Origin: Chrysomallon squamiferum | Lineage: Eukaryota > Animalia > Mollusca | NCBI GenBank assembly: GCA_012295275.1 | Contig: CM022679.1 | Coordinates: 13,702,001 to 13,766,000 of the forward strand | Reading direction: 5' to 3' | DNA: 64,000 nucleotides | Shown here: positions 2,456 to 63,439 of the stretch, piece by piece | How the letters are laid out: every line of letters begins with the position of its first letter | Position numbering within the stretch: position 1 is the stretch's first letter | Notes under the pieces: model-generated | What the model saw: the letters and a program-made list of their open reading frames with translations, nothing else | Databases searched by the model: none | Told to the model about the DNA's origin: nothing | Made by a program: the position numbers and the translations under genes

Positions 2456-4433
2456 AAGTAATCAATATGACACATGGAACAACGTTTAGATGTGTCCACT
2501 ATACATGTGATAAGATAGAAGAGTACTGTGTACCTGAAGACCAGAGGTGCTATTACTGCAAAGACATCAGTGATTTGTGCTTCACAATGCGTTTGGTTTT
2601 CCCTAAACAGTGTACTCATTTCTGTAAAGGTAGGTAGATGTGTATGTATGTATGTGAGTTTGTGTTTCTGCGTGTGTTTAGTTGTATGTATGTGTGTGTG
2701 TGTAGTTGTGTGTATGTCTGTGTATGTGTCCTTTGTGTGTTAGTATCCGCATGTATGTTTTTGAATATTTATGCATGAGTATGTGTATAAAGGTTTCTGT
2801 TAAGAAATATTTTTGCTATGTGTATGTTTTAAAATGTTTCTATAAGGCAGGTCTTTCTAGGCTAGATGATATTATATTTTATAACACTACTGTCACAATT
2901 TTTATGTTTTATTATTTGACAAATAAATAAATAAACAGATAAACCACGAAACAAACAATTAAACAAACAAATAAATAGGTAAGTAAATAAATAAATAAAC
3001 AGGCAAACAAACAAACACAGAGATTTTCACTGTTTACAAGTTTTTTGTTTTTAATCTCATTTTGTACGGAGTAACAACTTTTCTCTGTGCTTATTTCACA
3101 GATTATGTTTGTTTTTTTGTTTTTATTCCAGCTTTCCTTGATAATCAGGCAAAGACAGGTAAAGCTTTTTATTATTACAGCCAAAAAATTATAAATGTTT
3201 GTGTGTGTATATCTAAGATTATGTGTGTGTGTTTGTGTGTGTCTATATAGCTACGTATGTTTATGTGGATATATGTGTGTATGAATGCATGTATGTCTCT
3301 GTGTGTATATATATATATATATATGTACGTTTGTGTGTGTGTGTGTTTAAGAATTAAAAAACACAGGCATAGGAATGTTTTCATTAAAAAAAACATTTTC
3401 TAATTTTATCTCAAGGGATTCAAGTTGACTTAAAGTTGATCATGTAATATATATTATAGTGGTGCATTGGTCCTTTGGCTATATATTTGGCTATGAGAGT
3501 GTGTGTGAGCGTCTGTGTGTGTGTTTATTAGAGGTTTCTAATTAAAAAAGTTTTTGCTATGTGTATGTATTGAAATATGTCTATAAAGCAGGTCTTTCTA
3601 GGCAAGATGATACTATATTTTATAACAGTACTGTAATATTTGTATTATGTGTTTCGTTATTTGATAAATAAATAAATAAATAAATAAATAAACAAATAAA
3701 TAGACAAACAAACAAATAAACAAATAAATAAATAAACGTTTGTGTTTTTGATCTCAGTTTATACACAGTAACAATTTTTCTCTATGTTTATTTCACCAGA
3801 TTATATTTATTTTGTTTGTTTTTGTTTCAGATTTCCTTGGCAGTCAAATAACAGAAAGTAAGGCTTATTATTACTACAGTCATGAAATAATAAATGCTTG
3901 TGTACGCATATCTGTGCTTATATGTATGTATGTATGTATGTATTACGGCAGTGTTTGTGTATGTATGTATATATAGTATGTGTGTGTGGATATGTGTATG
4001 TATGAATGTATGTATATATTTTATGGCAGTGAATATGTGTGTGTGTTTGTGTGTTTGTATATATGTATGTGTGTATGTATGTATATATGTATATGTGTGT
4101 ATGTATGTATATATGTATGTGTGTGTGTATATGTGTGTATATGTATATGTACTAAGGCAGCAGTCGAGTTTGCTTGATAACAGTGGCAAAATTTATAGTT
4201 TTTTCTAAATGTGATTTTACAAAGTTACTTTGATTGTATTTCAGATCTTCCACAGAATAACGAGGTCCTTTCTACAGCACTTTCCATAGCATGTCTAATA
4301 GCAGTAGTATTATTATCAGCTGCAGCTGTACTGGTTTTCCTAAAATGGAGAAGACTGAGTAAGAACAAACATGAACACGGTGTTGAAAAAGTTGAAGAAC
4401 AAACAGAACTAATGAAAACAGGAAAAACAGCAG
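2456..4433 (+). CDS. Single-CRD TNF-receptor-like (Grindelwald/BCMA-like) gene copy A; exons 2456-2629, 3132-3158, 3831-3857, 4245-4433; tail exon missing
   Basis: All exons are AG/GT-flanked, phase 1 and multiples of 3. From ATG 2467: MTHGTTFRCVHYTCDKIEEYCVPEDQRCYYCKDISDLCFTMRLVFPKQCTHFCK-AFLDNQAKT-DFLGSQITE-NLPQNNEVLSTALSIACLIAVVLLSAAAVLVFLKWRRLSKNK... Similarity to paralogues stops at about 4469. Confidence 0.75.
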
Positions 4434-24064: not shown

Positions 24065-25424
24065 ACGTAGACAAGATGACCACTGGAACAACGTATAGAT
24101 GTGGCAACGATGTATGTGATGAGATAGAACATTATTGTGTACGTGAAGATGAGAGGTGCTATTACTGCAAAGACATCAGTGATTTGTGCTTCACAACGCG
24201 TTTGGATTTCCCTAAACAGTGTACTCGTTTCTGTAAAAGTAGGTAGATGTGTATGTATGTATGTATGTGAGTTTGTGTTTGTGTGTGTGTTTAATTGTAT
24301 GTATGTGTGTGTGTTTAGTTGCATGTATGTTTGTGTGTGTTTCTGTATGCAGTTGTGTGTATTTGTCCTTTGTGTGTTAGTATCCGCATGTATGTTTTTG
24401 AATATTTATGCATGAGTATGTGTATAAAGATTTCTAATAAGAAATATTTTTGCTATGTGTATGTTTTAAAATGTTTCTATAAAGCAGGTCTTTCTAGGCT
24501 AGATGATACTATATTTTATAACAGTACTGTAACATTTTTATTATGTCTTGTTATTTTACAAATAAACAATAAATAAATAAGCAGATAAACAAACAAACAA
24601 ATAAATAAATAAACACACAGATCTTCACAAAGTTAGTTACAACTTTTGTTTTTGATCTCATTTTGTACAGAGTAACAACTTTTCTGTGTGCTTATTTCAC
24701 AGATTTTATTTGTTTTCTGTTTTGGTTTCAGATTTCCTTGATAATCAGACAAAAAAAGGTAAAGCTTTTTATTATAGCCACAAAATAATGAATGTTTGTG
24801 TATATCTGTGTGTGTGTATGTGTTTGTGAATGTGTATTTGTCTGCATATGTGTACGAGTATATATGTATGTGTGTATCTTTGTATGTTCACTATGTATGT
24901 ATGTATGCATGTATATATTATGCAGTGTATGTGTATGTACGTTGGAATGTATGTATAGTATGTATGTATGTGTGTGTATGTATGTTTATAGGTATGTGTG
25001 TTTGCATATATATTTGTGTATGTAGGTATTTATGCATAGTATATATATATGTGTGTGTGTATATATATATATATATAACACTACTGTCACAATTTTTATG
25101 TGTTTCATTATTTGAAAAATAAATAAATAAATAAATAAACAGGCAAACCACGAAACAAACAATTAAACAAACAAATAAATAGGTAAGTAAATAAATAAAT
25201 AAACAGGCAAACAAACAAACACAGAGATTTTCACTGTTTACAAGTTTTTTGTTTTTAATCTCATTTTGTACAGAGTAAGAACTTTTCTCTGTGCTTATTT
25301 CACAGATTATATTTGTATTTTGGTTTTGTTTCAGCTTTCATTTCTAATCAGACAAAGACAGGTAAAGCGTTTTATTATTACAGCTAAAAAATTATAAATG
25401 TTTGTGAGTGTATATCTAAGATTA

Positions 25425-25462
<38 letters not shown>

Positions 25463-25754
25463 TACATAGCTACGTATATTTATGTGGATATATGTGTGTA
25501 TGAATGCATGTATGCATGTATATACAGACGCACACACACTCTCTCTCTCTCATATATAGCCAAAGGACCAATGCACCCTATAATATATATTACATGATCA
25601 ACTTTAAGTCAACTTGAATCCGTGTTTAAGAATTAAAAAACACAGGCATAGGAATGTTTTCATTAAAAAAAACTTAAAGTTGATCATGTAATATATATTA
25701 TAGGGTGCATTGGTCCTTTTGCTATATATTTGTGCATGAGAGAGAGAGAGAGAG

Positions 25755-25805
<51 letters not shown>

Positions 25806-26928
25806 ATTAGAGGTTTCTAATTAAAAATGTTTTTGCTATGTGTATGTTTTAAAATGTGTCTATAAAGCAGGTCTTTCTAGGCAAGATGATGCTATATTTT
25901 ATAACAGTACGGTAATGTTTTTATTATGTGTTTCGTTATTTGATAAATAAATAAATAAAAAATAAATAAATAAACAGACAAACAATCAAATAAACAAATA
26001 AATAAATAAACGTTTGTGTTTTTGATCTCAGTTTATACACAGTAACAATTTTTCTCTGTGTTTATTTCACCAGATTATATTTTTTTTTGTTGTTTTTGTT
26101 TCAGATTTCCTTGGCAGTCAAATAACAGAAAGTAAGGCTTATTATTACTACAGCCATGAAATAATAAATGCTCGTGTATGCATATCTGTGCTTATGTGTA
26201 TGTATGTATGTATGTATGTATGTATATATGTATGTATTACGGCAGTGTTTGTGTATGTATGAATGTATGTATATATTTTATGGCAGTGAATGTGTATGTG
26301 TGTTTGTGTGTGTGTTTGTATATATGTATGTGTGTATGTTTGTATATATGTATGTATGTGTGTTTGTATATATGTATGTGTGTGTGTTTGTATATATGTA
26401 TGTATGTGTGTTTGTATATATGTATGTGTGTGTGTTTGTATATATGTATGTGTGTATGTTTGTATATATGTATGTGTGTGTGTTTGTATATATGTATGTG
26501 TGTGTGTTTGTATATATGTATGTGTGTATGTTTGTATATATGTATGTGTGTGTGTTTGTATATATGTATGTGTGTATGTTTGTATATATGTATGTGTGTG
26601 TGTTTGTATATATATATATGTGTGTATGTTTGTATATGTATATGTACTAAGGCAGCAGTCGAGTTTGCTTGATAAAAATGGCTAAATTTATAGTTTTTTC
26701 TAAAGGTGATGTTACAAAGTTACTTTGATTGTATTTCAGATCTTCCAGAGGATAACAAAGTCCTTTATATAGCACTTTTCATAGCATGTCTAATAGCAGT
26801 AGTAGTATTATCATTTGCAACTGTACAGTTTTTCCTAAAATGGAGAAAACTGAGTAAGAACAAACATGAACACGATGTTGAAAGAAATGAAGAACAAACA
26901 GAACTAATGAAAAAAGAAAAAACAGCAG
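24065..26928 (+). CDS. TNFR-like gene copy B; exons 24065-24238, 24732-24758, 25335-25361, 26105-26131, 26740-26928; tail exon not seen before the gap
   Basis: From ATG 24076: MTTGTTYRCGNDVCDEIEHYCVREDERCYYCKDISDLCFTTRLDFPKQCTRFCK-NFLDNQTKK-AFISNQTKT-DFLGSQITE-NLPEDNKVLYIALFIACLIAVVVLSFATVQFFLKWRKLSKNK...; all splice sites canonical. Confidence 0.78.
26310..26640. repeat. 24-bp minisatellite (GTTTGTATATATGTATGTGTGTRT)n, about 12 units
   Basis: Visible tandem periodicity in the intron before the TM exon of copy B. Confidence 0.85.
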
Positions 26929-27637: not shown

Positions 27638-27837
27638 NNNNNNNNNNNNNNNNNNNNNNNNNNNNNNNNNNNNNNNNNNNNNNNNNNNNNNNNNNNNNNN
27701 NNNNNNNNNNNNNNNNNNNNNNNNNNNNNNNNNNNNNNNNNNNNNNNNNNNNNNNNNNNNNNNNNNNNNNNNNNNNNNNNNNNNNNNNNNNNNNNNNNNN
27801 NNNNNNNNNNNNNNNNNNNNNNNNNNNNNNNNNNNNN
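27638..27837. other. Assembly gap (200 N)
   Basis: N run; receptor gene orientation flips across it. Confidence 0.99.
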
Positions 27838-29112: not shown

Positions 29113-32037
29113 TTATGAATACAGTTTTTCAGCTTTTTCCCCTTCTTTATCATCGGCTGGAATCACTGTTTTCAGTTCATTTGGAAGACCAGATCCATTT
29201 GGAATATGTTTGTTCTTATTATGTATGGTAACCACTATATCATCATCATGAACAGCAATGGTCTTGTCAGCAGTGTTTCTGTTTCTGTTTCTGGAATTCT
29301 GTCCAACAGGATGATCTTGATCTGTTTCACTTATTTCCTGACTCAACACACTTCCAGAACTTCTTCTGTAGAGATGTCTATTAGCATCAACATCCTCTCC
29401 TTCTTCTTCATCACTGCTGCAGTGGATATTCCCGTTGAGAACTGCCTGACACAAAGTTGTTGTATCTGTGTCCCCAGCTCCATCTCCTGCCTCTGTCTGT
29501 GATTCAGCACACACGTTCTGCAACACCATCTTGTTCTCTAGAAAAATTAAAACTGAATATACTCATATCTTTTATTAGTCACTTGTGTAACTCCACGAGA
29601 AAAAAACAACAACAACCAAATAAATAAATAAATAAATTTAAAAAATAAAATAAAATAAATAAATAAATAATAAAAAGAAAATGAAATAAACTTTGTTAAA
29701 AATATAAGAATATACTAGTAAGGAATTACTGTTTCATTGTACAACTCATACAAATTACATTTCATCTACAAATTTTACATAGCATTAATGTTATTCTCAT
29801 AATTACTCTGAAATTCATGAAATAGCATAAGTCAGAAATTGCTATGAACTGAACAAAAATTAATATTTTACAGCAGCGAGACAGCAAGACATTAAAGAAA
29901 ATATTTTACACAAAATAAGTTTGTTTGTTCAAATTAACATTAATGATCTTCATTTCACCTTAATGTAGGGCTTTACTTTGACGGTATGAGCAAGTGTATC
30001 TCCTATGATATATATATATATATTTTTTTTTTGGAATGACAACTAATCTTTGCTAATGATAAAGTATGACAATAAAGATGTACTATCACGAAACTGGATG
30101 AGTATTGTAATTTTCTGCCTTTATTTGCACCAGTGATGACGACATCATTTTGTTTGATGAGGAGACTTGTCTATACCCAAATTAGCATGGATTCATACTT
30201 TATAGGTTGTTTGTATGGAGAAGACCAATATGATTCAGTAATTATTATTTCCTGCATTTATGTATGTATATATACATGTGCGTATATATATATATACATG
30301 TGCGAGTGAGTAAGTCAATGGATGGGTTAGTGAGTGATGTATGCATGAGTGAGGGAGTAAAAAAAGTAAACATTAATAGGATCAAGCTATTCTCAAGGAT
30401 CCTTGTTCACAGTCACACAATGACAGACTTTGGAAAGTACTAAAAAAGCAGGAACATTAATTAAATACATTTAAATACAAACTATGAGTAATGGGAAATC
30501 ATACACCAGACTCAGACATTTGGAAAATCTTACAAATAGACTCAAACATTTGGGAAATTATACAAACAGATAAAAACATTTTCATAACAGTCGCTTTGAT
30601 TTACAAGTTTAATTCGTTCCGAGACAGAGCTCGTAACTCTATTTGCTCATATATCAAATCAGTTTTCCCAACTGAAATTAATTGAAATACCATTAATCCG
30701 TTCTAAATCCCACCAAAACCACCCCATTTGTTTGTTTTGTTTTGTTTGTTTGTTTTGTTTTGTTTGTTTGTTTTTATATTTTTGTAACTTGTTTTTAAAT
30801 AAGAAAAATGTATTTATAAATAACAAATACAGTATAAAAACAAAATAAAAGAGAATGTAACGAAAGAAACTAGTTTTGTAAAGTGTATTTATCTTGGAGA
30901 TCAGACAAATTATTTTAAAGCCTTTGGCTGGAATTACAGCCTTTATCGACTCCTTCAGCTTCAGTATGAAGACATATCTAGAAGTACTACGCTCGTACTG
31001 CCTAGCCAAGTCGACTACATGCACACACCTTTCTCATGGTTTTCTATGAATTCAAGCTTTAATTCAATGGACATCATCACCTTCTTCTTCTCAGCAATGT
31101 CGTTTGCATTTTGCACTCACTGTCTTAGGATCGATGGTCAGGAAAAAGAAATTTGACAAAATACTGCACAAAACCCGAGGACAACACCACAGAGATGCTT
31201 CCACGGCGAGTAACCACGGAAAGTAAACGAGTGAGACGCGGGATGCTGGTTGGGTGTTATATTGTTCGTTGCGCCAACTGTATTTTGACTGAATTTGAAA
31301 TTAATCTGAACTGAAACATGTGCAGTGTTGTTTGTTTGTGTGTGTGCCTGTGTCTGTGTGTGGTGTGCATAAATCTGTGTGTGTGTGTGTGTGTGTGTGT
31401 GAGCGTGTTTTCAGAATTTGATAACTGTAAAAATAGCTGTATAACTCACCTGCTGTTTTTCCTGTTTCCATTAGTTCTGTTTGTTCTTCAACGTTTTCAA
31501 CACCGTGTTCATGTTTGTTCTTACTCAGTCTTCTCCATTTTATGATAACCAGTACAGCTGCAGCTGATAATAATACTACTGCTATTAGACATGCTATGAA
31601 AAATGCTGTAACAACAAATTTATGTATTTTGATAGAATTTGAAATTAATCTGAACTGAAACAGGTGCAGTGTTGTGTTTGTGTGTGTGTATGTGCGTGGT
31701 GTACATATATATATGTATGTGTGTGTGTGTGTTTGTTCTTCAACGTTTTCAACATCGTGTTCATGTTTGTTCTTACTCAGTCTTCTCCATTTTAGGAAAA
31801 CCAGTACACCTGCAGCTGATAATACTACTACTGCTATTAGACATGCTATGAAAAATGTTGTATAAAGGACCTCGTTATTCTGTGGAAGATCTGAAATACA
31901 ATCAAAGTAACTTTGTAACATCACCTTTAGAAAATACTATAAATTTAGCCACTGTTATAAAGCAAACTCGACTGCTGCCTTAGTACATATACGTATACAT
32001 ACATACATACATACATACATACACACACATACACACA

Positions 32038-32141: not shown

Positions 32142-33154
32142 CATTCATATATCCTCATATATACAGGGTTGTTTGATGTCCGAATGGTAACGTCGTCTCC
32201 CTTCGGAGTGCGAGCGAATGGGTGTCATACGTTCGAGTCTCGTCAGTGGCATCTGACGGGGTTTGTGAGGTCGAGATTGGACTTTATTGGTCGAGATTGT
32301 ACCAGTGTGTTCCCGAATATTGTCTATGTGCAAAGTCTATTCAGATGTACATAAGACACTGAATATTCAAAATCCTAAACTACATACATACATACATACA
32401 TACATACAAAATACATAATACATACAAATACACATAATACATACAAATATACACATACGCACAGATATGCATACACAAGCATTTATTATTTCTTGATTGT
32501 AGTAATAATAAGCCTTACTTTCTGTTATTTGACTGCCAAGGAAATCTGAAACAAAAACAAACAAAAAAATATAATCTGGTGAAATAAACACAGAGAAAAA
32601 TTGTTACTGTGTATAAACTGAGATCAAAAACACAAACGTTTATTTATTTATTTGTTTATTTGATTGTTTGTCTGTTTATTTATTTATTTTTTATTTATTT
32701 TTTTATTTATTTATCAAATAACGAAACACATAATAAAAATATTACAGTACTGTTATAAAATATAGTATCATTTTGCCTAGAAAGACCTGCTTTATAGAAA
32801 CATTTTAAAACATACAAATAGTAAAAATATTTTTAATTAGAAACCTTTATAAAACTAATAAACACACACTCTCTCTCTCTCTCTCTCTCTCAAAGGACCA
32901 ATCTCTACATGATCTTTCTATTTTTCTCTCTCTCTCTCTCTGTTTTTTCTCTCTCTCTCTCTCATAACAAACGTACATATAAAATATATAATATATATAG
33001 CCAAAGAATTAAAAACACAGGCCTATAATATACATTACATGATCAACTTTAAGTCAACTTGAATCTCCCTGAGATTAAACCAATGAAAATGTTTTTTTAA
33101 TGAAAAAACTCCTATGCCTGTGTTTTTTAATTTTAAACACACACCACACAAATA

Positions 33155-33192
<38 letters not shown>

Positions 33193-34123
33193 TACATGCA
33201 TTCATACATACATATAACCACATAAACATATGTAGATATATAGACACACACACACGCACACACACACATAAGATTAGCTATACACACACAAACATTTATA
33301 AGTTTTGGGCTGTAATAATAAAAAGTTTTACCTGTCTTTGGGTGATTATCAAGGAAAGCTGAAACAAAAACAAAATAAAAATAAAATCTCTGAAATAAGC
33401 ACAGAGAAAAGTTGTTACTCTGTACAAAATGAGATTAAAAACCAAAAACTCTGTGTTTGTTTGTTTGCCTGTTTATTTATTTATTTACTTACCTATTTAT
33501 TTGTTTGTTTAATTGTTTGTTTCGTGGTTTGCCTGTTTATTTATTTATTTGTCAAATAATAAGACTCATAAAAAATGTGACAGTAGTGTTATAAAATATA
33601 GTATCATCTAGCCTAGAAAGAACTGCATTATAGAAATATTTTAAAACATACACATAGCAAAAACATTTCTTATTAGAAATCTTTATACACATACTCATGC
33701 ATAAATATTCAAAAACATACATGCGGATACTAACACACAAAGGACACACCCACACACATACATACAACAAAACACATACACACAACTGCATACAGAAACA
33801 CACACAAACATACATGCAACTGAACACACACACACACATCTACCTACCTTTACAGAAACGAGTACACTGTTTAGGGAAATTCAAACGCATTGTGAAGCAC
33901 AAATCACTGATGTCTTTGCAGTAATAGCACCTGTTGTCTTCAGGAACATAATACTGTTCTAGCTCATCACATTTTTCAGGGTCAAATCCAAACGTTTTTC
34001 CAGCTGTCATCTTGTCTCTGTCTGTTGGAAGGCTGGCAACTCGACTTTGACATATGGCTACAGAAAATGCTCCTAATAACAGGACAGACATCAGCAACCG
34101 ATTCTGTCTTCCATTTTGATGGA
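29113..34123 (-). CDS. TNFR-like gene copy C; exons 34123-33848, 33358-33332, 32545-32519, 31890-31450 (doubled TM), 29537-29113
   Basis: Open throughout, 387 aa from ATG 34091: MSVLLLGAFSVAICQS...MTAGKTFGFDPEKCDELEQYYVPEDNRCYYCKDISDLCFTMRLNFPKQCTRFCK-AFLDNHPKT-DFLGSQITE-TM x2-ENKMVLQNVCAE...AEKLYS*. Confidence 0.75.
30590..31280 (-). mobile_element. Non-autonomous pogo/Tigger derivative in the last intron of copy C
   Basis: Frameshifted CENP-B/psq-type HTH N-terminus: DPKTVSAK...AEKKKVMMSIELKLEFIENHEKGV/HVVDLARQYERSTSRYVFILKLKESIKAVIPAKGFKII; TA|CAG end; absent from copies B and E. Confidence 0.8.
32166..32400 (+). mobile_element. tRNA-derived SINE with (TACA)n tail
   Basis: A-box-like TGTCCGAATGG, B-box GTTCGAGTC, microsatellite tail; same site as the 47616 copy in gene D. 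Confidence 0.65.
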
Positions 34124-34262
34124 CTGGAAAATGTTAGTTCATTGTTGGTCTTTGGGGAAATAAATATTCTATAATCCCCTACTGTTTTTTCATTTTGCTA
34201 TCACTTATTTATTTTTATCATTCTTTCTGTATTTATTTATTTACTTATTAATTAATTTATTA

Positions 34263-36388: not shown

Positions 36389-37547
36389 GTTAAACTTTGG
36401 TATAAAACACCGTTCGCCTATCAAAACAGTAATATAAGTATTAAGATTTTTATCAAACCAGTTATCAGACCCACAGGTAAGCTTTAATAGTTTACACTTG
36501 TGTTCTTACAGGTTTAACCTCACTGTGCCCGCAGTCTGACCTACGCCTACAGCAAATGTTCCTCTTGACATGGCAGTAAACTGCAACAGAATATGCTGAT
36601 TCCATCTCCCATTCTGTTGGACTGTAAAATGTTAATGCATTGTTGGTCTTTTGGAAAATAAACTATACTGTAATCCCCTACTGTTTTATCATTTGCTATC
36701 CTTGACTGCTTAAGTAATATATAACAATAGGTTCGGGCATAGTGAGGTAACCCCATACGTCATTGTACGAAATAAGAGATTACAAAGAAACAATACACTA
36801 TTAAAGATCATGATAAGCGACCAATTTATTTATTTAATATATTCAGTACAATTTATATTTATAAAATATATTTTTTATTTACATATTTTATTATTGTTTA
36901 TTTAATTTATTAATTTATGTATTATTATTATTAATATTATTTATTTATTTATTTTTTTGTTCATTTATTTTTATTTGTATTTTTATTTTTATTATTATTT
37001 TATTTATTTTTTCAATTTTTTAAATTTCTATCGAAAATATACAAAACGTTATTTTGCCATGTCATTATTTACCTTAGATACTCTCACAACGTTCATATTT
37101 CGTGGACACATTATACAGACAGTATGCAGGTAATTAATTCTATACAATATTTTTAATAATTTACAGGTGACACTCGATTTCGTAGACCAACAGAGTTAAC
37201 AAAAAAGTCTGGGAAATCGCGAATCTAAATATTAACCCTCAAATTTACCAAAACATTAAACTTTAGAACACATAACATCTATTTAATACGGTAATAAAAT
37301 AATCTAAGAAAAATATACAGAGAAAAACAAATTAAACAAATTTCATACGGTATATGTTAAGAAAAAGGAAGGAATGAAAATGTAGACGAGGTTGGGTATA
37401 GCTATGGGTGAATTGTAAATTGTATTCTTACCTTGATGGAAATTGGATTGAGAGAGGGCTGCCGCGATCGTATAGTTGAACACAGAATAACTTAGTAGTA
37501 TGTAGAGGCAAGGTTTCAAGCGGGAAATTTTTTAACACACACACACG

Positions 37548-37949: not shown

Positions 37950-38382
37950 GCTACATTTTATTTATTTGTTTATTTATTTACATTACTTTTTAAATTATAT
38001 ATATATATATTATAAGTACTTCAAGTTAACCAAAAAATATATAAAATAAAGATATTACGAACTATTAAAAAAGCTCCCTTATCACCGATATTGTTGTCCT
38101 GTATAACATGCAGTATTGCTTTTTCATTGATAGATAGATAAATAGACAGACAGACAGATAGAGAGACAGATAAATAGATTTGAATTGTTTGCTCACAATT
38201 CTCAGTTTCTGCTGATGAACTTGTTGTTGCCGTTGTTTTCTTTTTCATTACTACTACTGCTACTACTACTAAAATCAATACTACAACTACTACTATTACT
38301 ACCACTACCACTGTTATTACTACTACTACCACCGTCACTTCCATTATTTATCTGCTTATTTATTTATTTATTTATTCTATAG

Positions 38383-38508
38383 GATGCTCCTTTAATGGCA
38401 AATGCTATGATGAAGAAGCAAGTCGGTCATACAGCTGCTCGAAATTCACGTGCACTAACCACAGCAACAAAACACATTTTCAGTGGAAAAGTCAGACTGT
38501 TAGCAAAG
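38383..38508 (+). CDS. 126-nt phase-1 exon, 4-Cys VWC/FnI-like module (divergent copy)
   Basis: tatag|...|gtaaga; GCSFNGKCYDEEASRSYSCSKFTCTNHSNKTHFQWKSQTVSK. Confidence 0.6.
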
Positions 38509-39160
38509 GTAAGAGAGTTGATAGAATTTCAGATTGTTAGCAAACGTAAGAAAGTTGATAGAATTTCAGACTGTTAGCAAACGTAAGAAAGTTGATAGAA
38601 TTTCAGACTGTTAGCAAACGTAAGAAAGTTGATAGAATTTCAGACTGTTAGCAAACGTAAGAAAGTTGATAGAATTTCAGACTGTTAGCAAACGTAAGAA
38701 AGTTGATAGAATTTCAGGTTCTTAACAAAAATAAAAGAGTTGATAGAATTTCATATTGCTAGCAAAGATAAGACAGTCGATAGAATTTCAGATTGTTAGC
38801 AAAGGTAAGAGTCGATAGAATTTCAGATTGTTAGCAAAGATAAGAGTCGACAGAATTTCAGATTGTTAACAAAGATAAGAGTCGACAGAATTTCAGATTG
38901 TTAGCAAAGATAAGAGAGTAGATATAATTTTATATTGTTAGCAAAGATAAGAAAGTCGATATAATTTCAGTTTGTTTGAAAAGATAAGAAAGTCGATAGA
39001 ATTTCTGATTGTTAACAAAGATAAGAGAGTTGACAGAATTTCAGATTGTTAACAAAGATAAGAAAGTTGACAGAATTTCAGATTGTTAACAAAGATAAGA
39101 AAGTTGACAGAATTTCAGATTGTTAGCAAAGGTTAGAGAATCGATAGAATTTCAGATTGT
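38494..39160 (+). repeat. 35-37-bp minisatellite, about 18 units
   Basis: Unit ATTGTTAGCAAAGGTAAGAGAGTTGATAGAATTTCAG, starting inside the exon 3' end. Confidence 0.95.
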
Positions 39161-40041
39161 TGTTTCAGTTATTAATTCAGCGCTGTTTAATTCTAATTTT
39201 TCTATCATAATATAAACACTTTTTTTTTTTCTTCTCAATGACCGAAGTTTTGGAAGTTATTTTCAGCATTAAGATCTTGGATGCTATCAGTTTTTCACAA
39301 ATAAATGTTAGTGTATCGGTAAATGTTAGTGTCTAGTATGAATGCTATCAGTGTTTCACAATGCAAATTTTATAATTCTATCAATTTTTATCAGTTTAAA
39401 TGCTATAAATATTTTCAGTTTTTCACAGTGTAAATGTTATGAATGTTATCAGGTTTCAAGTGGGAAATAACGGTATGTTCAGATTTGATCTAAAAGGAAA
39501 TTCACGTGTCACATAAGCGATATAAATAGTTTGGAATTTTCAAGTTAAAAAATAAACCCATATCGGAAGTTATAATTTTTAAAATTATTTTTAAATACTG
39601 TTATTACAAATTTATTATTTATGTGTTGATGTTTTTTTCTAAATTACCCGCACGCTCGCACGCACGCACGCACACACACATATGTAATTATTTGGTTTTC
39701 TGTAACTATTTCGTTTCGACTCAAATTTTAAATATTTATAATGGAAGAGTTTGAGAAAGGTGGTTAATAACTCATTTTGATTAATATTGTTATTATAGTG
39801 TTTGTTTGATTGTTTCAAGATGATAAACGTTTAAAACTCACAAAATATATTCAAAAAACAAATAAATTTTTATATCAGAATAAATATGTGTGTTGTTCAT
39901 AAATAAAACATTTAAGAAAATTGTTTTTATATTTTATGAAACATAGTGAAAGAAGATAAAATACAAAACAAAATAAAAGCTTGTAAAATAATACATTTTT
40001 ATTATAATAATAATTTAATTTTCACAATTCTTCATATGTTA

Positions 40042-43000: not shown

Positions 43001-43813
43001 CATCGTACAAAACTTAATTTAGATGGTGCTGGTGTAAAAGAATATTTGTGATCTCATTCATAGGCCTGCAATAGGGTTATCAATAATAAAAAATGATCAA
43101 TGGATTTAGGGATGAATGTTTTCACCTTCATTTTAAAAAAGGAAAATCCCTGTTTTCAAGATGGGAGTAGTGATCAAGTATCCAGACAAAAGTATCCCCC
43201 AGTTATTTCTTCACACATCTACAATTATAATTGTGTTTGTATGAATCTCTATTTGCAGTGGTGTTTAGTCAGTTTTAATTGGTACCCACAGTATAAAGTA
43301 ATTACAACAAATAGAATTCAGAACTATACTTGAAAAAATAATAAAGGTGTGGGGAAACAAATATTCATAAGGGGAATACAAACATTCTTTCCAAGTGGAA
43401 TAACTGTTTTGGGGGAACAAATATTGTTTGACACCGGCATTAAAAATTATTTGAAAAGGAGTTGTGAAAGAAAAGTCTAAGAATTCCTGCTTTAAATTAC
43501 TTAGCATTTGTTTCTGGCTATCGTTTTATAAATGCTAAAAACATGCTGACATAATAACATATATATCAATAATAAGACATTTGGATCCTAAGAAGAATTC
43601 CTTCTATGTTTGGAATGAATTCATGTACACTCTTACAGTGAACCTTCGACATAATTATTACTGAAGCATACATTACATATCAATAAAGGCAAACACTTCA
43701 AAACAAAATATTAATATATCTGTAATAATTACACATATAGCACAAACAAAACTGAAATGTCTACAATAATCAAATATGTTAATACTAAGTTAATTCTACT
43801 GTTGTTCTATCAG

Positions 43814-43930
43814 CTTGCGGCGATGGTTATGGACACTGTACTGAAGTAGGAAAAACAATCAAGAAAGGATGTATGGAACTGAAGTGTCTCAGGGAAATTT
43901 CTAAATGTGGCCTTGTTCCATTTAAAGGAG
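43814..43930 (+). CDS. 117-nt phase-1 exon, second Cys-rich module of the same type
   Basis: atcag|...|gtgagt; ACGDGYGHCTEVGKTIKKGCMELKCLREISKCGLVPFKG; C..G.C...G......C....C spacing parallels the 126-nt exon. Confidence 0.6.
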
Positions 43931-44845
43931 GTGAGTATTTCAGTTTATATAATTACCTCTCATTAAAAAAAAAAAACAACAATAAATAAAAAAAACACCT
44001 AGTTATCTGTACTTGTGAAGAAGAAGAAGAAAAAAACCAAATATTTTTTGGTATGGTTTGTTACCCTATTATAACAGTAAAATGTTTGTATCTAGAACAA
44101 CAGTAGTATATTAGTTGTGTTAGAACATGTACATTATAATGTGAGCGTCATAATGATATGACCTTATTTTCGTTCTGTATTGTGTTTACCTTTGTTTATA
44201 AATGTTTACCATTTGTTATTTAACATTGTTTACATGCAATTTTGCATATCTGGTTCAGTAAATAAATAGTTGTCCTATACACACTCAGTAGTCATGTACA
44301 TTATAAAACAATCTTAAACTAATGTCTCAGACACATTATCTAGAATAATAGTAAAAAATCATACTTCTAACCTCCCTAAATATCATATGTTAGCTACTTT
44401 GTATTAAATGATTATATCATCTACAAGTTTCTTTAGCTTTTGAATTTCGTAACAGTTATTTCGTAAATGTTATCTATCCTGTACGCTAATCTATTAGATT
44501 AAGTAAGGAGTCTGATGGAAAAACATGATATCGAAGCAAACATATATCAACGTAATAAAATCAAATAAAAAGTAGTTATCCAAGGAGATTTTTTTAATGT
44601 GGTTTGTTTCACTATTAAAACCAAAACTGAGCTTAAATAAAGAAATATAAAAGAAAAGAAAGAAAATAATTTTTTAAAATATAAAATAAGATAAAACAAA
44701 TATAAAAAAATAAAAGAAATTAAATTAAATTAAAAAAATAAGAAATTTCTTTTTTTGCTTTTACCGTTTATAAATACAGTTTTTCAGCCTTTTCCCATTC
44801 TTTGTCTTCGGCTATAATCACTGTTTTTAGTTTATTTGGAAGACC

Positions 44846-46954
44846 TTATCCATTAGGAATATGTTTGTTCTTATTACGTATGATAATCACTATATCATCA
44901 TCATGAACAGCAATGGTCTGGTCAGCAGTGTTTCTGTTTCTGGAATTCTGTCCAACAGGAAGATCTTCATCTGTTTCACTTATTTCCTGACTCAACACAC
45001 TTCCAGGACTTCTTCTGTAGAGATGTCTGTTAGCATCAACATCCTCTCCTTGTTTTTCATCACTGCTGCAGTGGATGTTCCCGTTGGGGACTGCCTGACA
45101 CAAAGTTGTTGTATCTGTGTCCCCAGCTCCATCTCCTGCCTCAGTCTGAGATTCAGAACACACGTTCTGCAACACCATCTTGTTCTCTAGAAATATTAAA
45201 ACTGAATATACTCATATCTTTTATTAGTCACTTGTGTAACTCCATGAGAAAAAAACAACAACAACCAAATAAATAAATAAATAAATTTAAAAAATAAAAT
45301 AAAATAAATAAATAAATAATAAAAAGAAAATGAAATAAACTTTGTTAAAAATATAAGAATATACTAGTAAGAAATTACTGTTTCATTGTACAACTCATAC
45401 AAATTACATTTCATCTACAAATTTTACATAGCATTAATGTTATTCTCATAATTACTCTGAAATTCATGAAATAGCATAAGTCAGAAATTGCTATGAACTG
45501 AACAAAAATTTATATTTTACAGCAGCGAGACAGCAAGACATTAAAGAAAATATTTTACACAAAATAAGTTTGTTTGTTCAAATTAACATTAGTGATCTTC
45601 ATTTCACCTTAATGTAGGGCTTTACTTTGACGGTATGATATATATATATATATATTTTTTTGGAATGACAACTAATCTTTGCTAATGATAATGTATGACA
45701 ATAAAGATGTACTATCACGAAACTGGATGAGTATTGTAATTTTCTGCCTTTATTTGCATCAGTGATGACGACATCATTTTGTTTGATGAGGAGACTTGTC
45801 TATACCCAAATTAGCATGGATTCATACTTTATAGGTTGTTTGTATGGAGAAGACCAATATGATTCAGTAATTATTATTTCCTGCATTTATGTATGTATAT
45901 ATAGATGTGCGTATATATATATGCGAGTGAGTAAGTCAGAGGATGGGTTAGTGAGTGATGTATGCATGAGTGAGGGAGTGAAAAAAGTAAACATTAATAG
46001 GATCAAGCTATTCTCAAGGATCCTTGTTCACAGGCATGACAGACTTTGGAAAGTACTAAAAAAGCAGGAACATTAATTAAATACATTTAAATACAAACTA
46101 TGAGTAATGGGAAATCATACACCAGACTCAGACATTTGGAAAATCTTACAAATAGACTCAAACATTTGGGAAATTATACAAACAGATAAAAATATTTTCA
46201 TAACAGTCGCTTTGACTTACGAGTTTAATTCGTTCCGAGACAGAGCTCGTAACTCTATTTGCTCATATATCAAATCAGTTTTCCCAACTGAAATTAATTG
46301 AAATACCATTAATCCGTTCTAAATCCCACCAAAACCACCCCATTTGTTTGTTTTGTTTTCTTTGTTTGTTTTTATATTTTTGTAATTTGTTTTTAAATAA
46401 GAAAAATGTATTTATAAATAACAAATACTCTATAAAAACAAAATAAAAGAGAATGTAACGAAAGAAACTAGTTTTGTAAAGTGTATTTATCTTGGAGATC
46501 AGACAAATTATTTTAAAGCCTTTGGCTGGAATTACAGCCTTTATCGACTCCTTCAGCTTCAGTATGAAGACATATCTAGAAGTATTACGCTCATACTGCC
46601 TAGCCAAGTCGACTACATGCACACACCTTTCTCATGGTTTTCTATGAATTCAAGCTTTAATTCAATGGACATCGTCACCTTCTTCTTCTCAGCAATGTCC
46701 TTTGCATTTTGCACTCACTTTCTTAGGATCGATGGTCAGAAAAAAGAAATTTGGCAAAATGCTGCACAAAACCCGAGGACAACACCACAGAGATGCTTCC
46801 GCGGCGAGTAACCACGGGAAGTAAACGAGTGAGACGCGGGATGCTGGCTGGGTGTTATATTGTTCGTTGCGCCAACTGTATTTTGACTGAATTTGAAACT
46901 AATCTGAACTGAAACATGTGCAGTGTTGTTTGTTTGTGTGTGTGGTGTGCATAA

Positions 46955-46991
<37 letters not shown>

Positions 46992-48508
46992 CGTGTTTTC
47001 AGAATTTGATAACTGGAAAAATAGCTGTATAACTCACCTGCTGTTTTTCCTGTTTCAATTAGTTCTGTTTGTTCTTCAACTTTTTCCATGACGTGTTCAT
47101 GTTTGTTCTTACTCAGTCTTCTCCATTTTAGGCAAACCAGTACAGCTGCAGCTGATAATACTGCTACTGTTGTTAGACATGCTATGGAAAATGCTGTATA
47201 AAGGACCTCGTTATGTTGTGGAAGATCTGAAATACAATCAGAGTAACTTTGTAACATCACCTTTAGAAAAAACTATAAATTTATCCATTTTTATCAAGGA
47301 AACTCGACTGCTCCCTTTGTACATATACATACATACACACATATATACACACAAATACATATATACACACACACACAAACACACATACACTTTCACTGCC
47401 ATAAAGTATATACATACATTCATACATACACATCCACACTCACGCATTCATACTATACATATATAAATAATCACGAAAACATATATACCAGCAGACATAC
47501 AAACAAACAAACATACATACATACATACATACATACATACATACATACATACATACATGCATACATGCATACATACATACATACATGCATGCATTCATAT
47601 ATCCTCATATATACAGGGTTGTTTGATGGCCGAACGGTAACATCGTCAGCATTCGGAGTGCGAGCGAATGGGTGCCATACGTTCGAGTCTCATCAACGAC
47701 ATCTGACGGGTTTGTGAGGTCGTGATTGCACTTTATCCTCCTGTGCCACAGCGTTCCTGAATGTTGTCTATGTGCAAAGTCTATTCAGACGTACATAAGA
47801 CACTGAATATTCAAAATCCTAAACTACATACATACAAACATACATAATACACACAAATATATATACGTACGTGCATGCATACATACATACATACACATAC
47901 GCACAGATATGCATACACAAGCATTTATTATTTCATGACTGTAGTAATAATAAGCCTTACTTTCTGTTATTTGATTGCCAACGAAATCTGAAACAAAAGC
48001 AAGAAATAAATATAATCTGGTGAAATAAACACAGAGAAAATTTGTTACTGTGTATAAAATGAGATCAAAAACACAAAAGTTGTAGCTGTAACTTTGTGAA
48101 GATCTGTGTGTTTATTTATTTATTTATTTGTTTATTTGATTGTTTTTCTGTTTATTTATTTATCAAATAACGAGACACATAATAAAAATGTTACAGTACT
48201 GTTGTAAAATATAGTATCATTTAACCCAGAAACACCTGCTTTATAGAAACATTTTAAAACATACAAATAGCAAACATATTTTTAATTAGAAACCTTTATA
48301 ACTAATAAACACACACACACACACACACGTACACACACACACTCATTCACAAATATATAGCCAAAGGACCAAAGCACCCTATAATATACATTACATGATC
48401 AACTTTAAGTCAACTTGAATCCCCTGAGATTAAATTAGAAAATGTTTTTTTTTAATGAAAACATTCCTATGTCTGTGTTTTTTATTTCTTAAACACACAC
48501 ACACACAA

Positions 48509-48556
<48 letters not shown>

Positions 48557-49434
48557 GTACATGCATTCATACATACATATAACCACATAAACATATGTAG
48601 ATATATAGACACACACACACACACACACACACAAGATTAGATATACACACAAAAACATTTATAAGTTTTGGGCTGTAATAATAATAAGATTTACCTGTCT
48701 TTGGGTGATTATCAAGGAAAGCTGAAACAAAAACAAAATAAAAATAAAATCTCTGAAATAAGCACAAAGAAAAGTTGTTACTCTGTACAAAATGAGATTA
48801 AAAACTAAAAACTTGTAACAGTGAAAATCTCTGTGTTTATTTGTTCGTTTGTTTGTCTGTTTATTCATTTATTTACTAACTCTCTTATTTATTTATTTAT
48901 TTATTTGTTTGTTTGTTTAATTGTTTGTTTCGTGATTTGTCTGTTTATTTATTTATTTATTTGTCAAATAATAAGACACATAAATAAAATGTGACATTAG
49001 TGTTATAAAATATAGTATCATTTAGCCTAGAAAGACCTGCATTATAGAAACATTTAAAAACATAAAAATACCAAAAATATTTCTTATTAGAAGCTTTTAT
49101 ACACATACTCATGCATAAATATTCAAAAACATACATGCGGATACTAACAGACAAAGGACACATACACAGACATACACACAACTACACACAGCTACACACA
49201 CACACACACACACACAAACTCGCATACATACATACATACATACATACATACATACATACACAGCTACCTACCTTCACAGAAAGGAGTACACTGTTCAGGG
49301 AAATCCAAACGCATTGTCAAGCACGAATCACTGATGTCTTTGCAGTAATAGCACCTGTCATCTTCAGGTACACAATACTGTTCTATCTCATCACATACAT
49401 CGTGGCCACATCTAAACGTTGTTTCAGTTGCCAT
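44846..49434 (-). CDS. TNFR-like gene copy D; exons 49434(ATG)-49272, 48721-48695, 47987-47961, 47226-47038, 45186-44846; 248 aa, no signal peptide
   Basis: MATETTFRCGHDVCDEIEQYCVPEDDRCYYCKDISDSCLTMRLDFPEQCTPFCE-AFLDNHPKT-DFVGNQITE-NLPQHNEVLYTAFSIACLTTVAVLSAAAVLVCLKWRR...-ENKMVLQNVCSE...HIPNG*; the tail stops 27 codons earlier than in C. Confidence 0.78.
46204..46878 (-). mobile_element. pogo/Tigger derivative, paralogous to 30590-31280
   Basis: DPKKVSAK...HVVDLARQYERNTSRYVFILKLKESIKAVIPAKG. Confidence 0.8.
47616..47835 (+). mobile_element. tRNA-derived SINE
   Basis: Consensus Pol III A-box TGGCCGAACGG and B-box GTTCGAGTC, followed by non-tRNA body and tail. Confidence 0.7.
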
Positions 49435-51465: not shown

Positions 51466-51500
<35 letters not shown>

Positions 51501-51520
51501 CTTACTTATTTATTTTATAG

Positions 51521-51646
51521 GATGCTCCTTTAATGGCAAATGCTATGGTGAAGGAGCATATTGGTCATACAGCTGCTCGAAATTCACGTGCATTAACAAC
51601 AGCAACAAAACACATTTTCAGTGGAAAAGTCAGACTGTTAGCAAAG
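51521..51646 (+). CDS. 126-nt phase-1 exon, VWC/FnI-like module
   Basis: GCSFNGKCYGEGAYWSYSCSKFTCINNSNKTHFQWKSQTVSK; fits the C.FNG..Y..G..W...C....C pattern; canonical splice sites. Confidence 0.7.
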
Positions 51647-53822: not shown

Positions 53823-54022
53823 NNNNNNNNNNNNNNNNNNNNNNNNNNNNNNNNNNNNNNNNNNNNNNNNNNNNNNNNNNNNNNNNNNNNNNNNNNNNNN
53901 NNNNNNNNNNNNNNNNNNNNNNNNNNNNNNNNNNNNNNNNNNNNNNNNNNNNNNNNNNNNNNNNNNNNNNNNNNNNNNNNNNNNNNNNNNNNNNNNNNNN
54001 NNNNNNNNNNNNNNNNNNNNNN
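53823..54022. other. Assembly gap (200 N)
   Basis: N run between near-identical blocks. Confidence 0.99.
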
Positions 54023-55790: not shown

Positions 55791-55916
55791 GATGTTCCTT
55801 TAATGGCAAATGCTATGGTGAAGGAGCATATTGGTCATACAGCTGTTCGAAATTCACATGCATTAACAACAGCAACAAAACACATTTTCAGTGGAAAAGT
55901 CAGACTGTTAGCAAAG
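55791..55916 (+). CDS. 126-nt phase-1 exon, VWC/FnI-like module (protein identical to the 51521 copy)
   Basis: Three nucleotide differences from 51521-51646, all synonymous (TGC/TGT twice, ACG/ACA). Confidence 0.7.
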
Positions 55917-61162: not shown

Positions 61163-63118
61163 TCATAAATAGCGTAAGTCAGAAATTGTTATAAACTGAA
61201 CAAAAATGAATATTTTACAGCAATGACACACGTTCTGGAACACAGTCTTGTTCTCTAGAAAAATTAAAACTGAATATACTCATATCTTTTATTAGTCACT
61301 TAATATAACTCCATGAGAGAGAAAAAAATAAAAAATAGAAAGTAAGAAAATGAAATAAACGTTGTTAAAAATATAAAAATATACTACTAAGAAATTACTG
61401 TTTCATTGTACAACTCATACCAATCACATTTCATCTACAAATTTTAGATAGCATTAATATTATTGTCACAATTATTCTGAAATTCATGTAATAGCATAAG
61501 TCAGAAATTGTTATGAACTGAACAAAAATTAATATTTTACAGCAGCGACACAGCAAGACATTAAAGAAAATATTTTACACAAATTAATTTTGTTTGTTCA
61601 AATTAACATTAGTGATCTTCATTTGACCTTAATGTAGGGCTTTACTTTGACAGTATGAACAAATGGCAAAACTACATTCAGTGTATGTCCTAAAATAATA
61701 GGTTGTTGTTTTGTTTTTGTTTGTTTTTATTTGTTTATATATATATATATAAATGACAAGGATCAGTACTGTAATGTTCCCCTTTATTTGCATCAATGGT
61801 GATGACATTTCGTTTGATGAGGACTGATTTGTTGTAAGTTGTTAGAAAAAGATTTGGACTCATACCATCAAGGTTGTTTGTACGGATAAGACCAATATGA
61901 TTCAAGAATTATTATTTCGTGCATTTATTTATGCATCTGTATGTGTGTTTATATACATGTGCGAGTGAGTAAGTTAATGGATGTGTGCATGAGTGAGTCA
62001 GTGAAAAAAAATAAAATATTAATAGGATCAAGCTATCCTAAAGGATGCTTGTCACAGTGAAAAAAAGCAGCAGCATTCATTAAAGACATTTATATAAAAA
62101 CAGTGAGTAATGGGAATTCAATTCACACAAATAGACTCAAATGTTTTTATAACAGTCATACATGCATTTGCAAAGGCAGGAAATGTCAGCGTTCATATGT
62201 TACTCCTGGAGCAACAGCATCATATTATGTACATTCTTTATTATTAGGAAAAACTGGTTAGAAGAAACAAATAAAATACTGAAAGAATACACAGTGCATT
62301 TCGACGACTGACTGACTCAAAACAACAAATTTATATTCTTTGACAGAACTGTAAACTAATCTGAATTGAAACATATGCAGTGTTGTGTGAGTGGATTTGT
62401 GTTTACGTGTGTGAGTGTATTTTTTCAATTTGGTTAACTGGAAATATACATCTGTCAACTCACCTATTTTGTCTTTTTTCGTTAGTTCTGTTTGTTCTTG
62501 ATTTTGCTCAACACCATCTTTGTTTTTGTTTTTACGTCGTATGCTCCACAGTAGGAAAAATATTTGATCTGCAACTGATGATACTATTACTATTGCTAGT
62601 ATTACTAATACTACTAGTATTGCTAGTAATACTATTGTATCATAAAGGTCTTCCTGAATCTGGTAGAGATCTGAAATAAAACCAAAGTTTTGTAACAAGC
62701 ACCCATAAAAACAACTATGAATTCAGCCATTTTTATAAAGCAAACCAGACTACTGCCATAATACATATACATACACACATTCATACAAACATACATACAT
62801 ACAAACATACATACACACACATACATACATACTATACATACATACATACATGAACATACATAGATTCATATATATATATATATATATAAATAATATATAT
62901 ATATATATATACACACACAAATACACACAAACATACATATATACATACATACATACATACATGCAAAGACACACACATACATATATCCTCATACACATAT
63001 TCAGACAAATACACATTCACAAACACATACACACACACACACAGATATACACAAACATTAATTATTTTGTGGCTGTAATAAAAAGCTTTACCTTTTTTTG
63101 CCTGATTATCAAGGAAAT
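61163..63118 (-). CDS. TNFR-like gene copy E (3' part); exons 63118-63092, 62670-62464, 61254-61163; CRD exon presumably beyond the window
   Basis: DFLDNQAKK-DLYQIQEDLYDTIVLLAILVVLVILAIVIVSSVADQIFFLLWSIRRKNKNK...DKIG-ENKTVFQNVC then unrelated sequence to TGA. Confidence 0.68.
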
Positions 63119-63439
63119 CTGAAACCAAAACAGAAAACAAATATAATCTGTGAAATAAGCACACAGAAAAGTTGTTACTCTGTATAAAATGAGATCAAAA
63201 ACAAAAGCTGTAACTAACTTTGTAAACATCTATGTGTTTATTTATTTATTTGTTTGTTTGTTTATCTGTTTATTCATTTATTATTTATTTGTCAAATAAT
63301 AAGACACATAATAAAAATGTTACACTACTGTTGTAAAATATAGTATCATCTAGCCTAGAAAGGCCTGCTTTATAGAAACATTTTAAAACATACAAATAGC
63401 AAAAACATTTCTTCTTATTAGAAACCTTTATAATTAATG

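What the first reader, a model, noticed from the sequence alone, without database searches (positions are those of the whole stretch)
33848..34010. Paired loss of Cys1 and Cys3 turns an 8-Cys Grindelwald-type CRD into a 6-Cys BCMA/TACI-type CRD
Seen: copy C has GFDPEKC...EQYY where A, B and D have RCxxxxC...E.YC, so exactly two cysteines are replaced (C to F, C to Y) and the other six are kept. Knowledge: BCMA disulfides are 1-2, 3-5, 4-6, which map to C2-C4, C5-C7, C6-C8 here and leave C1-C3 as a pair. Inference: compensatory loss of one disulfide indicates selection on a folded protein and shows a route between the insect-type and vertebrate-type CRDs within one locus.
Basis: partly seen in the sequence, partly recalled or inferred. 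Interest (0 to 1): 0.8.

Follow-up and report, generated by a model that had tools for sequence, protein, structure and literature searches.

The report
Snail TNF receptor drops one disulfide
One copy in an expanded family of likely TNF-receptor genes, probably of a snail, has lost two of its eight cysteines, which likely formed one disulfide, leaving a domain predicted to fold like the human B-cell receptors BCMA and TACI; this is likely a recent convergence rather than the historical route between insect and vertebrate receptors.

Summary
Confirmed: copy C has Cys1 TGT>TTT and Cys3 TGT>TAT; six cysteines remain. It belongs to a multi-copy family of single-CRD membrane proteins whose named relatives are gastropod (Gigantopelta, Haliotis). 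C is the only copy in the window with an unbroken frame to its natural stop. The change is not an assembly error: Cys3>Tyr recurs in 3 of 4 runs, and a second six-cysteine version, 12% diverged, exists. C1-C3 pairing is inferred from spacing identical to Grindelwald's X2 module; no disulfide was read directly. The AlphaFold model of C is closest to TACI/BCMA (rmsd 1.9-2.2 A, E above 1) and far from Grindelwald (4.8 A). So the eight-cysteine copies are Grindelwald-like only in their N-terminal half. Evidence for compensatory selection is weak: C's changes pile up in the N-half (16 of 17), and chance gives an exact disulfide pair 5-10% of the time. Lone Cys2 losses occur in two relatives. No RNA covers the domain, the DxL motif is absent, and no ligand is known. 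Verdict: a real, probably tolerated, convergent variant; a useful natural mutant pair, not a demonstrated route between insect and vertebrate receptors.

The parts
33848..34010 (-). Copy C, coding part of the CRD exon (ATG at 34010; six cysteines); phase-1 GT donor after 33848; AG acceptor 11 bases upstream of the ATG at the place homologous to A and B
33984..33986 (-). Cys1 codon changed to Phe (TGT>TTT)
   Evidence: same letter in one contig each of X2 and X5
33948..33950 (-). Cys3 codon changed to Tyr (TGT>TAT)
   Evidence: one contig each in X2, X5, X4, none in X3
34011..34091 (-). In-frame upstream extension with its own ATG and a hydrophobic, signal-peptide-like start (best 9-residue hydropathy 2.58); lies in repeated DNA, use unknown
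33332..33358 (-). Copy C 27-base stalk micro-exon 1 (AG/GT, phase 1-1)
   Evidence: a Gigantopelta relative has a 9-residue alternative insert at this place
32519..32545 (-). Copy C 27-base stalk micro-exon 2
31450..31890 (-). Copy C transmembrane exon, partly duplicated in tandem; open frame from the first acceptor (two helices, 360 aa product) and from a second AG at 31605 (one helix, 265 aa product)
29113..29537 (-). Copy C cytoplasmic exon, open to its stop; low complexity, no death domain seen, one weak TRAF-like SxEE match
2467..4433 (+). Copy A: 8-Cys CRD exon 2467-2629, micro-exons 3132-3158 and 3831-3857, TM exon 4245-4433; no cytoplasmic exon found in the window
24076..26928 (+). Copy B: 8-Cys CRD exon 24076-24238, three micro-exons, TM exon 26740-26928; runs into an N gap at 27638
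44768..49434 (-). Copy D: 8-Cys CRD exon 49434-49272, two micro-exons, TM exon 47226-47038, cytoplasmic exon 45186-44768 with a premature stop at codon 249
61226..63130 (-). Copy E: micro-exon near 63120, diverged TM exon near 62450-62670, short remnant of the cytoplasmic exon; no CRD exon inside the window

Best explanation
Copy C is an uninterrupted member of a multi-copy family of likely TNF-receptor genes, probably of a gastropod, that has lost Cys1 and Cys3, which likely formed one disulfide, and is predicted to keep a three-disulfide fold like BCMA and TACI. How it would work: translation starts at the Met just before the domain (no signal peptide, N-terminus outside, as in type III receptors); a beta-hairpin and two helices would bind a trimeric TNF-family ligand through the hairpin tip; a short micro-exon stalk and one helix lead to a disordered tail. 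C1-C3 only ties the N-terminal arm to the hairpin, so it is likely dispensable: one cysteine was lost in a fast-changing N-terminal half, and the freed partner followed, by selection against a free thiol or by relaxed constraint. The new Tyr would fill the first hairpin strand where BCMA and TACI also carry an aromatic residue (recalled). The likeness to BCMA/TACI in cysteine number is then a recent convergence on a shared ancestral fold. Shown: sequence, exon structure, recurrence in runs, relatives. Inferred: disulfides, topology, expression, ligand binding, selection.
For: Open frame with canonical splice sites across five exons. Recurs in 3 of 4 runs from three studies; a second six-cysteine version differs at 12 of 98 letters. 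6 of 6 contigs covering both positions have both or neither cysteine. Spacing C1..C4 of 19 residues, C4-x2-C5, invariant Tyr at Grindelwald's Phe46 and invariant Arg at Arg53; X2 disulfides are intercalated (PMC8024323 passages and section 8). Model pLDDT 68, hairpin 19-22/27-30 plus helices 31-39 and 47-52; top Foldseek and VIA hits are TACI and BCMA. An abalone relative's nearest Atlas clusters are TACI, BCMA and grindelwald. A, B, D keep 24 of 24 cysteines, P 0.034 under neutrality; Cys2-Tyr-Cys3 codons carry 2 of 29 amino-acid variants against 6.2 expected, P 0.038. A Met lies 5-8 residues before Cys1 in 10 of 10 database relatives examined.
Against: No disulfide was read from coordinates; the tools return none. 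Foldseek E-values are 1.2 or worse and VIA Z is about 3; Atlas feature scores are under 0.9 and copy C itself got no usable hit. Chance gives an exact pair in 5-10% of simulations. dN is equal to or above dS in all 6 CRD pairs and pN/pS is 0.77/0.95 among run variants. The only RNA run laid touched 34100-34164, not the domain. The TM exon of C is partly duplicated, and the long splice form would invert the tail. Lone Cys2 losses exist: P0003 and one X4 contig. Considering cysteines alone, 2 variants against 4.1 expected is not significant, P 0.20.
Confidence: 0.55

Rival explanations
1. Copy C is a decaying or neutrally drifting duplicate. Its N-terminal half simply accumulated many changes, two of which hit cysteines, and that they form a pair is chance.
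For: 16 of 17 private changes lie in the N-half, which holds only Cys1-3; P(C1+C3) 0.09 under that pattern. dN/dS near or above 1. Neighbours are broken or incomplete (D premature stop; A without tail), and frameshifted relatives occur in the runs. No RNA evidence.
Against: Frame and splice sites are intact over 265 codons; the five C-half cysteines region has only 1 private change; a second six-cysteine version persists at 12% divergence, ungapped over 98 letters and with Cys2 intact.
Confidence: 0.25
2. The disulfides are not as inferred: for example Cys3 bonds Cys4 across the hairpin and Cys1 bonds Cys2, or the C-terminal pairs are nested as in Grindelwald and Fn14. In the first case C has two free cysteines that must re-pair; in the second it is Fn14-like rather than BCMA-like.
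For: Grindelwald's C-terminal module is nested and C2 modules also occur in Fn14; Cys5-to-Cys7 distance in abalone relatives equals Grindelwald's 16 residues. Cys3 and Cys4 sit on opposite hairpin strands in both models.
Against: Exact X2 spacing in the N-half. The model superposes on TACI/BCMA at 1.9-2.2 A and on Grindelwald at 4.7-4.8 A, about the 4.4-5.2 A that separates Grindelwald from BCMA and TACI (supplement passage).
Confidence: 0.12
3. The N-terminal half of C was brought in as a block by gene conversion or recombination from an older, diverged six-cysteine paralog; the cysteine losses happened elsewhere and earlier.
For: C differs from A, B, D by 21-26% in the N-half, 4-7% in the C-half and mostly 5-10% in the following intron; the upstream DNA is 12-17% from D; dS is 0 in the C-half of all 6 pairs; the second six-cysteine version has a different 5' junction.
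Against: Both cysteine codons differ from TGT by one base, as expected of descent from this same family; all named relatives but one keep eight cysteines. It changes when the loss happened, not what it is.
Confidence: 0.08

Closest known systems
Drosophila Grindelwald (PDB 6zsy, 6zt0; PMC8024323)
   Same: Single CRD of beta-hairpin plus helices; eight cysteines in A, B, D; N-terminal module spacing, core aromatic and Arg before Cys4 coincide; no DxL motif in either.
   Different: C-terminal spacing x6, x8-10, x3 versus x3, x11, x3; no CxxCxxxC signature; no signal peptide in relatives (Grindelwald's ectodomain begins at residue 30); copy C has six cysteines; model rmsd 4.7-4.8 A.
Human BCMA (TNFRSF17) and TACI CRD2 (TNFRSF13B)
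   Same: Six cysteines in one domain; best structural matches of the C model (rmsd 1.9-2.4 A over 35-38 residues); local sequence likeness of the last helix to TACI (E 1.8); probable type III topology.
   Different: No DxL motif at the hairpin tip; six residues between Cys5 and Cys6; Pfam TACI-CRD2 and BCMA models not reached; extra N-terminal arm; no evidence of BAFF or APRIL binding; not orthologous on present evidence.
Uncharacterized gastropod proteins XP_041364531.1, XP_041363116.1 (Gigantopelta aegis), XP_046544447.1, XP_046544443.1, XP_046331305.2, XP_067661421.1, XP_071088954.1 (Haliotis)
   Same: Same CRD (36-57% identity to copy B), short stalk, one helix, low-complexity tail, Met just before Cys1.
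   Different: All keep eight cysteines; two to few copies per species found, against dozens of depth-equivalents here.
Invertebrate grnd homologues surveyed in bioRxiv 10.1101/2024.07.27.603686
   Same: Single-CRD receptors in molluscs and annelids, with lineage-specific expansion (12 in Capitella).
   Different: That survey defines them by CXXCXXXC; in the abstract, results section and searched passages it names neither BCMA nor TACI nor a loss of cysteine pairs.

Membership tests
Grindelwald | Eight cysteines in one CRD | tested here: not met
   Copy C has six; A, B, D have eight
Grindelwald | N-terminal X2 module: residues 35-54, Phe46 core, Cys57 three residues after Cys54 | tested here: met
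   C1..C4 19 residues, invariant Tyr and Arg at offsets of Phe46 and Arg53; met in spacing, with two cysteines replaced in C
Grindelwald | C-terminal C2 module C-x3-C-x11-C-x3-C (CXXCXXXC signature) | tested here: not met
   Spacing is x6, x8-10, x3 in all copies and relatives (definition)
Grindelwald | Nested C-terminal disulfides | tested here: inconclusive
   No coordinates; model lies 4.7-4.8 A from Grindelwald
Grindelwald | Binds an Eiger/TNF trimer; Traf2 and Veli sites in the tail | not testable with these tools
   No ligand of this organism in hand; motif scan gave one weak SxEE in C's tail
BCMA/TACI (TNFRSF17/13B) | Six-cysteine ligand-binding CRD | tested here: met
   model ends map to BCMA 7-41 and TACI 69-105
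BCMA/TACI (TNFRSF17/13B) | Disulfides 1-2, 3-5, 4-6 (recalled; not found in search) | tested here: inconclusive
   Best fold matches but E 1.2 or worse and Z 2.7-3.2
BCMA/TACI (TNFRSF17/13B) | [quoted passage not shown] | tested here: not met
   Tip reads VPEDNR in C; motif defined
BCMA/TACI (TNFRSF17/13B) | Type III membrane protein, no signal peptide | tested here: inconclusive
   Named relatives have short, mostly polar and variable N-termini and a Met 5-8 residues before Cys1 (definition), but C has an optional hydrophobic in-frame extension and every copy keeps a phase-1 acceptor
BCMA/TACI (TNFRSF17/13B) | Pfam PF09305 or PF09257 above curated cut-off | tested here: not met
   None for A-D; PF09305 E 0.073 in 1 of 9 aligned members
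BCMA/TACI (TNFRSF17/13B) | Binds BAFF or APRIL | not testable with these tools
   No assay possible
Fn14 (TNFRSF12A) | Six-cysteine CRD with nested C2 module | tested here: inconclusive
   Would follow if C-terminal pairs are nested; connectivity not readable here

The most novel reading that the evidence does not exclude
This gastropod family is a living structural intermediate: a Grindelwald-type X2 hairpin joined to a BCMA/TACI-type C-terminal module on a signal-less type III receptor. BCMA and TACI then descend from such an eight-cysteine bilaterian ancestor by loss of the C1-C3 bond, and copy C has replayed that step with two point mutations while the ligand-contacting hairpin diversifies across dozens of paralogs.
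Probability: 0.25. Interest if true: 0.68.

Novelty: new variant of a known kind. Interest (0 to 1): 0.42.

Why it matters
Single-CRD TNF receptors of insects (Grindelwald) and vertebrates (BCMA, TACI, Fn14, BAFF-R) share a topology but superpose poorly, and their relationship is unsettled. A family that mixes the two, and a natural pair of paralogs that differ by one predicted disulfide, makes the question testable at the bench: fold, map and ligand-test the eight- and six-cysteine domains. The large, fast-changing expansion also points to immune-type receptor diversification in an unstudied mollusc family. Paired loss of cysteines is in itself a common event in disulfide-rich families (recalled), which caps the surprise.

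Tried and rejected
Assembly error: rejected. Own-genome search: no genome held. Pfam and PDB sequence searches of single copies: nothing meaningful; profile A4 against PDB gave only chance poxvirus polymerase hits, E 0.85 or worse. First homologue search with the four copies: 0 of 94 candidates; the last search added no new relatives. P0004 dropped as a chance hit (1262 aa, repetitive, no cysteine pattern). Model of eight-cysteine copy D from a 4-row alignment had pLDDT 53 and was not used for fold search. Fn14 and BAFF-R were not listed in either fold search, which does not exclude them. Atlas search with copy C gave no usable hit. RNA run X9 did not cover the domain, which is no evidence of silence. 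One search listed variants only for 49360-49404, so it tests Cys2 and Cys3 only; one search hid 26 variant rows and 117 pieces. I first read the upstream region as a fused signal exon broken in D; relatives without signal peptides made the Met before Cys1 the likelier start. No complex was predicted, as no ligand of this organism was in hand. Two papers on Fn14 disulfides were not held. Searches for BCMA disulfide numbering and for concerted cysteine loss gave nothing usable. Earlier findings of this scan: none.

Full report
Observation. The window is AT-rich, microsatellite-laden eukaryotic DNA. It holds four copies of a 54-codon cysteine-rich exon: A (+2467), B (+24076), C (-34010) and D (-49434). 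Copy C has TTT at the first cysteine codon and TAT at the third; the other six are kept.

Gene structure. Each CRD exon ends in a phase-1 donor and is followed by two or three 27-base micro-exons and a transmembrane exon; C and D also have a cytoplasmic exon. Joined in a script, C gives an open frame of 265 residues (or 360 through its partly duplicated TM exon). D has a premature stop at codon 249; A and B have no tail exon in the window; a fifth copy, E, is cut by the window's end. C is thus the only copy of five with a complete unbroken frame here. Splicing is predicted, not observed.

Relatives. A profile of the four copies found 5 proteins among 1.84 billion representatives, of which 4 are true relatives and 1 was dropped as chance. 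Further searches and cluster look-ups gave uncharacterized proteins of Gigantopelta aegis and four Haliotis species and two unnamed ENA proteins. The organism is therefore probably a gastropod (inference). Of 10 database relatives examined, 9 have eight cysteines and 1 (P0003) lacks Cys2 alone; the three further Haliotis proteins also have eight. All 10 have a Met 5-8 residues before Cys1; Haliotis rufescens isoforms differ in their short N-termini and none looks like a signal peptide. BCMA, TACI, BAFF-R and XEDAR are the type III exceptions among TNF receptors (PMC6001812, passages).

Is the change real and shared? Nine of 11 listed runs hold the stretch, all of one coded organism. With C as reference, X2 has a contig matching C over 33915-34230 with 2 other letters; X5 has a contig that carries both changes but differs at 12 of 98 letters and has another 5' junction. 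From the depth sums, 6 contigs cover Cys1 in X2 and X5: 2 lack both cysteines, 4 keep both, none lacks one (X1 and X9 had no cover there; contigs too unlike C are clipped, and 26 variant rows were hidden). With D as reference, Cys3>Tyr appears in one contig each of X2 (72 of 1998 depth), X5 (23 of 420) and X4 (6.6 of 128), and not in X3 (0 of 328); a silent change in the same codon appears in all four runs; Cys2>Ser appears in one X4 contig that by its depth also carries a one-base deletion (only Cys2 and Cys3 fell in the listed range). The two six-cysteine versions share several private letters, so they most likely record one event. The one RNA run laid did not reach the domain.

Which disulfide? 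In Grindelwald the module 35-54 has two intercalated disulfides and the C-terminal module C57-x3-C61-x11-C73-x3-C77 is nested (PMC8024323, passages). Here C1 to C4 spans the same 19 residues, C5 follows after two, and the invariant Tyr and Arg fall on Phe46 and Arg53, with the hairpin tip 49-53 being the ligand contact there (section 8 part 1). So C1-C3 and C2-C4 are likely. The C-terminal spacing differs (x6, x8-10, x3). The AlphaFold model of C (11 rows, pLDDT 68) has a hairpin and C-terminal helices. Foldseek ranks TACI and BCMA first (rmsd 1.9-2.2 A, E 1.2) and Grindelwald 16th (4.8 A); no match reached E 0.001. VIA finds 4 of 48,161 chains at Z 2 or more, three of them BCMA or TACI, aligning model 13-53 to BCMA 7-41. 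Grindelwald itself lies 4.4-5.2 A from BCMA and TACI (supplement passage; one supplementary file was not readable and the alignment figures could not be seen). An eight-cysteine abalone relative also scores nearest to TACI and BCMA clusters, with a grindelwald cluster at similar TM. The family thus looks like a Grindelwald-type N-half on a BCMA/TACI-like C-half, before any cysteine loss. All these scores are weak and no disulfide was read from coordinates. BCMA's 1-2, 3-5, 4-6 pattern is recalled; one search did not find it in print.

Selection. C has 17 private base changes, 16 in the N-half (P 0.0001); A, B and D together have 19 of 27 there (P 0.03). Under neutral placement, exactly one disulfide pair is lost in 4.7% or 9.6% of simulations. 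That A, B and D keep all 24 cysteines has P 0.034. Among 36 variants from the runs, 29 change a residue (pN 0.77, pS 0.95); the Cys2, Tyr and Cys3 codons carry 2 against 6.2 expected (P 0.038), the two cysteines alone 2 against 4.1 (P 0.20). Pairwise dN is equal to or above dS. The N-half is 21-26% diverged against mostly 5-10% in the next intron, which fits diversifying selection on the ligand-binding hairpin or a recombination break inside the exon. So the scaffold is weakly conserved in the family and the paired loss is compatible with compensation, but does not prove it.

Mechanism. Most likely C is a tolerated receptor variant: the C1-C3 bond only tethers the N-terminal arm, its loss leaves a three-disulfide domain of BCMA/TACI build, and the hairpin presents a changed surface to a TNF-family ligand (0.55). 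Rivals are neutral decay (0.25), other disulfide pairings (0.12) and import of an older block by conversion (0.08).

Comparison and novelty. It works like a single-CRD TNF receptor but fails defining tests for both Grindelwald (eight cysteines, C2 spacing) and BCMA/TACI (DxL motif, Pfam cut-off). Grnd-like receptors and their expansions in molluscs and annelids are already reported (bioRxiv 10.1101/2024.07.27.603686: abstract, results section and passages), and the Atlas holds a mollusc cluster with partial TACI/BCMA annotation. I found no account of this family or of a six-cysteine variant in searches (listings; PMC7674686, PMC6684607 and PMC3648529 seen as passages), which cover open-access papers only. 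Verdict: new variant of a known kind, interest 0.42. The claim of a route between insect and vertebrate domains holds only as a demonstration that two point mutations could suffice.

Noticed in passing
window 38350-38500, 51490-51660, 55760-55930 and 43770-43950, 60360-60560 (+): Exon-like cysteine-containing segments of a second repeated gene family on the opposite strand, interleaved between copies C, D and E; not identified.
   Followed up: no
window 38492-39161, 51630-53090, 55900-57377: Minisatellite of about 37 bases that begins at the splice donor of the + strand exon above, in three arrays of different length.
   Followed up: no
window 6100-9300 (-): Decayed LINE-like element with endonuclease- and reverse-transcriptase-like fragments (recognised from recalled motifs), downstream of copy A's TM exon, where its tail exon would be expected.
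   Followed up: no
window 19010-19170 (+) and 36540-36700 (-): Repeated segments similar to the DNA upstream of the CRD exons of C and D but not followed by a CRD; highly multi-copy in the runs; A and B have unrelated upstream DNA, so the CRD module has been joined to different 5' sequences.
   Followed up: partly
window 33332-33358, 32519-32545 and equivalents in A, B, D, E: The stalk is built from two or three tandem 27-base micro-exons, which would let stalk length vary by duplication or skipping; a Gigantopelta relative has isoforms with and without a 9-residue insert there.
   Followed up: partly
window 31450-31890 (-): Partial tandem duplication of the TM exon in copy C stays in frame through the intervening microsatellite, so a two-helix form is possible.
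   Followed up: partly
window 33905-33930 and 49340-49400 in runs X2, X5: Summed contig depth at the conserved core is about 2,400-2,700 in X2 against 72 for the copy C contig, which suggests tens of paralogs, though summed depth is not a copy number; four of six distinct indel events among laid contigs keep the frame.
   Followed up: partly
window 27638-27837 and 53823-54022: Two 200-base N gaps; the first cuts copy B before its cytoplasmic exon.
   Followed up: no
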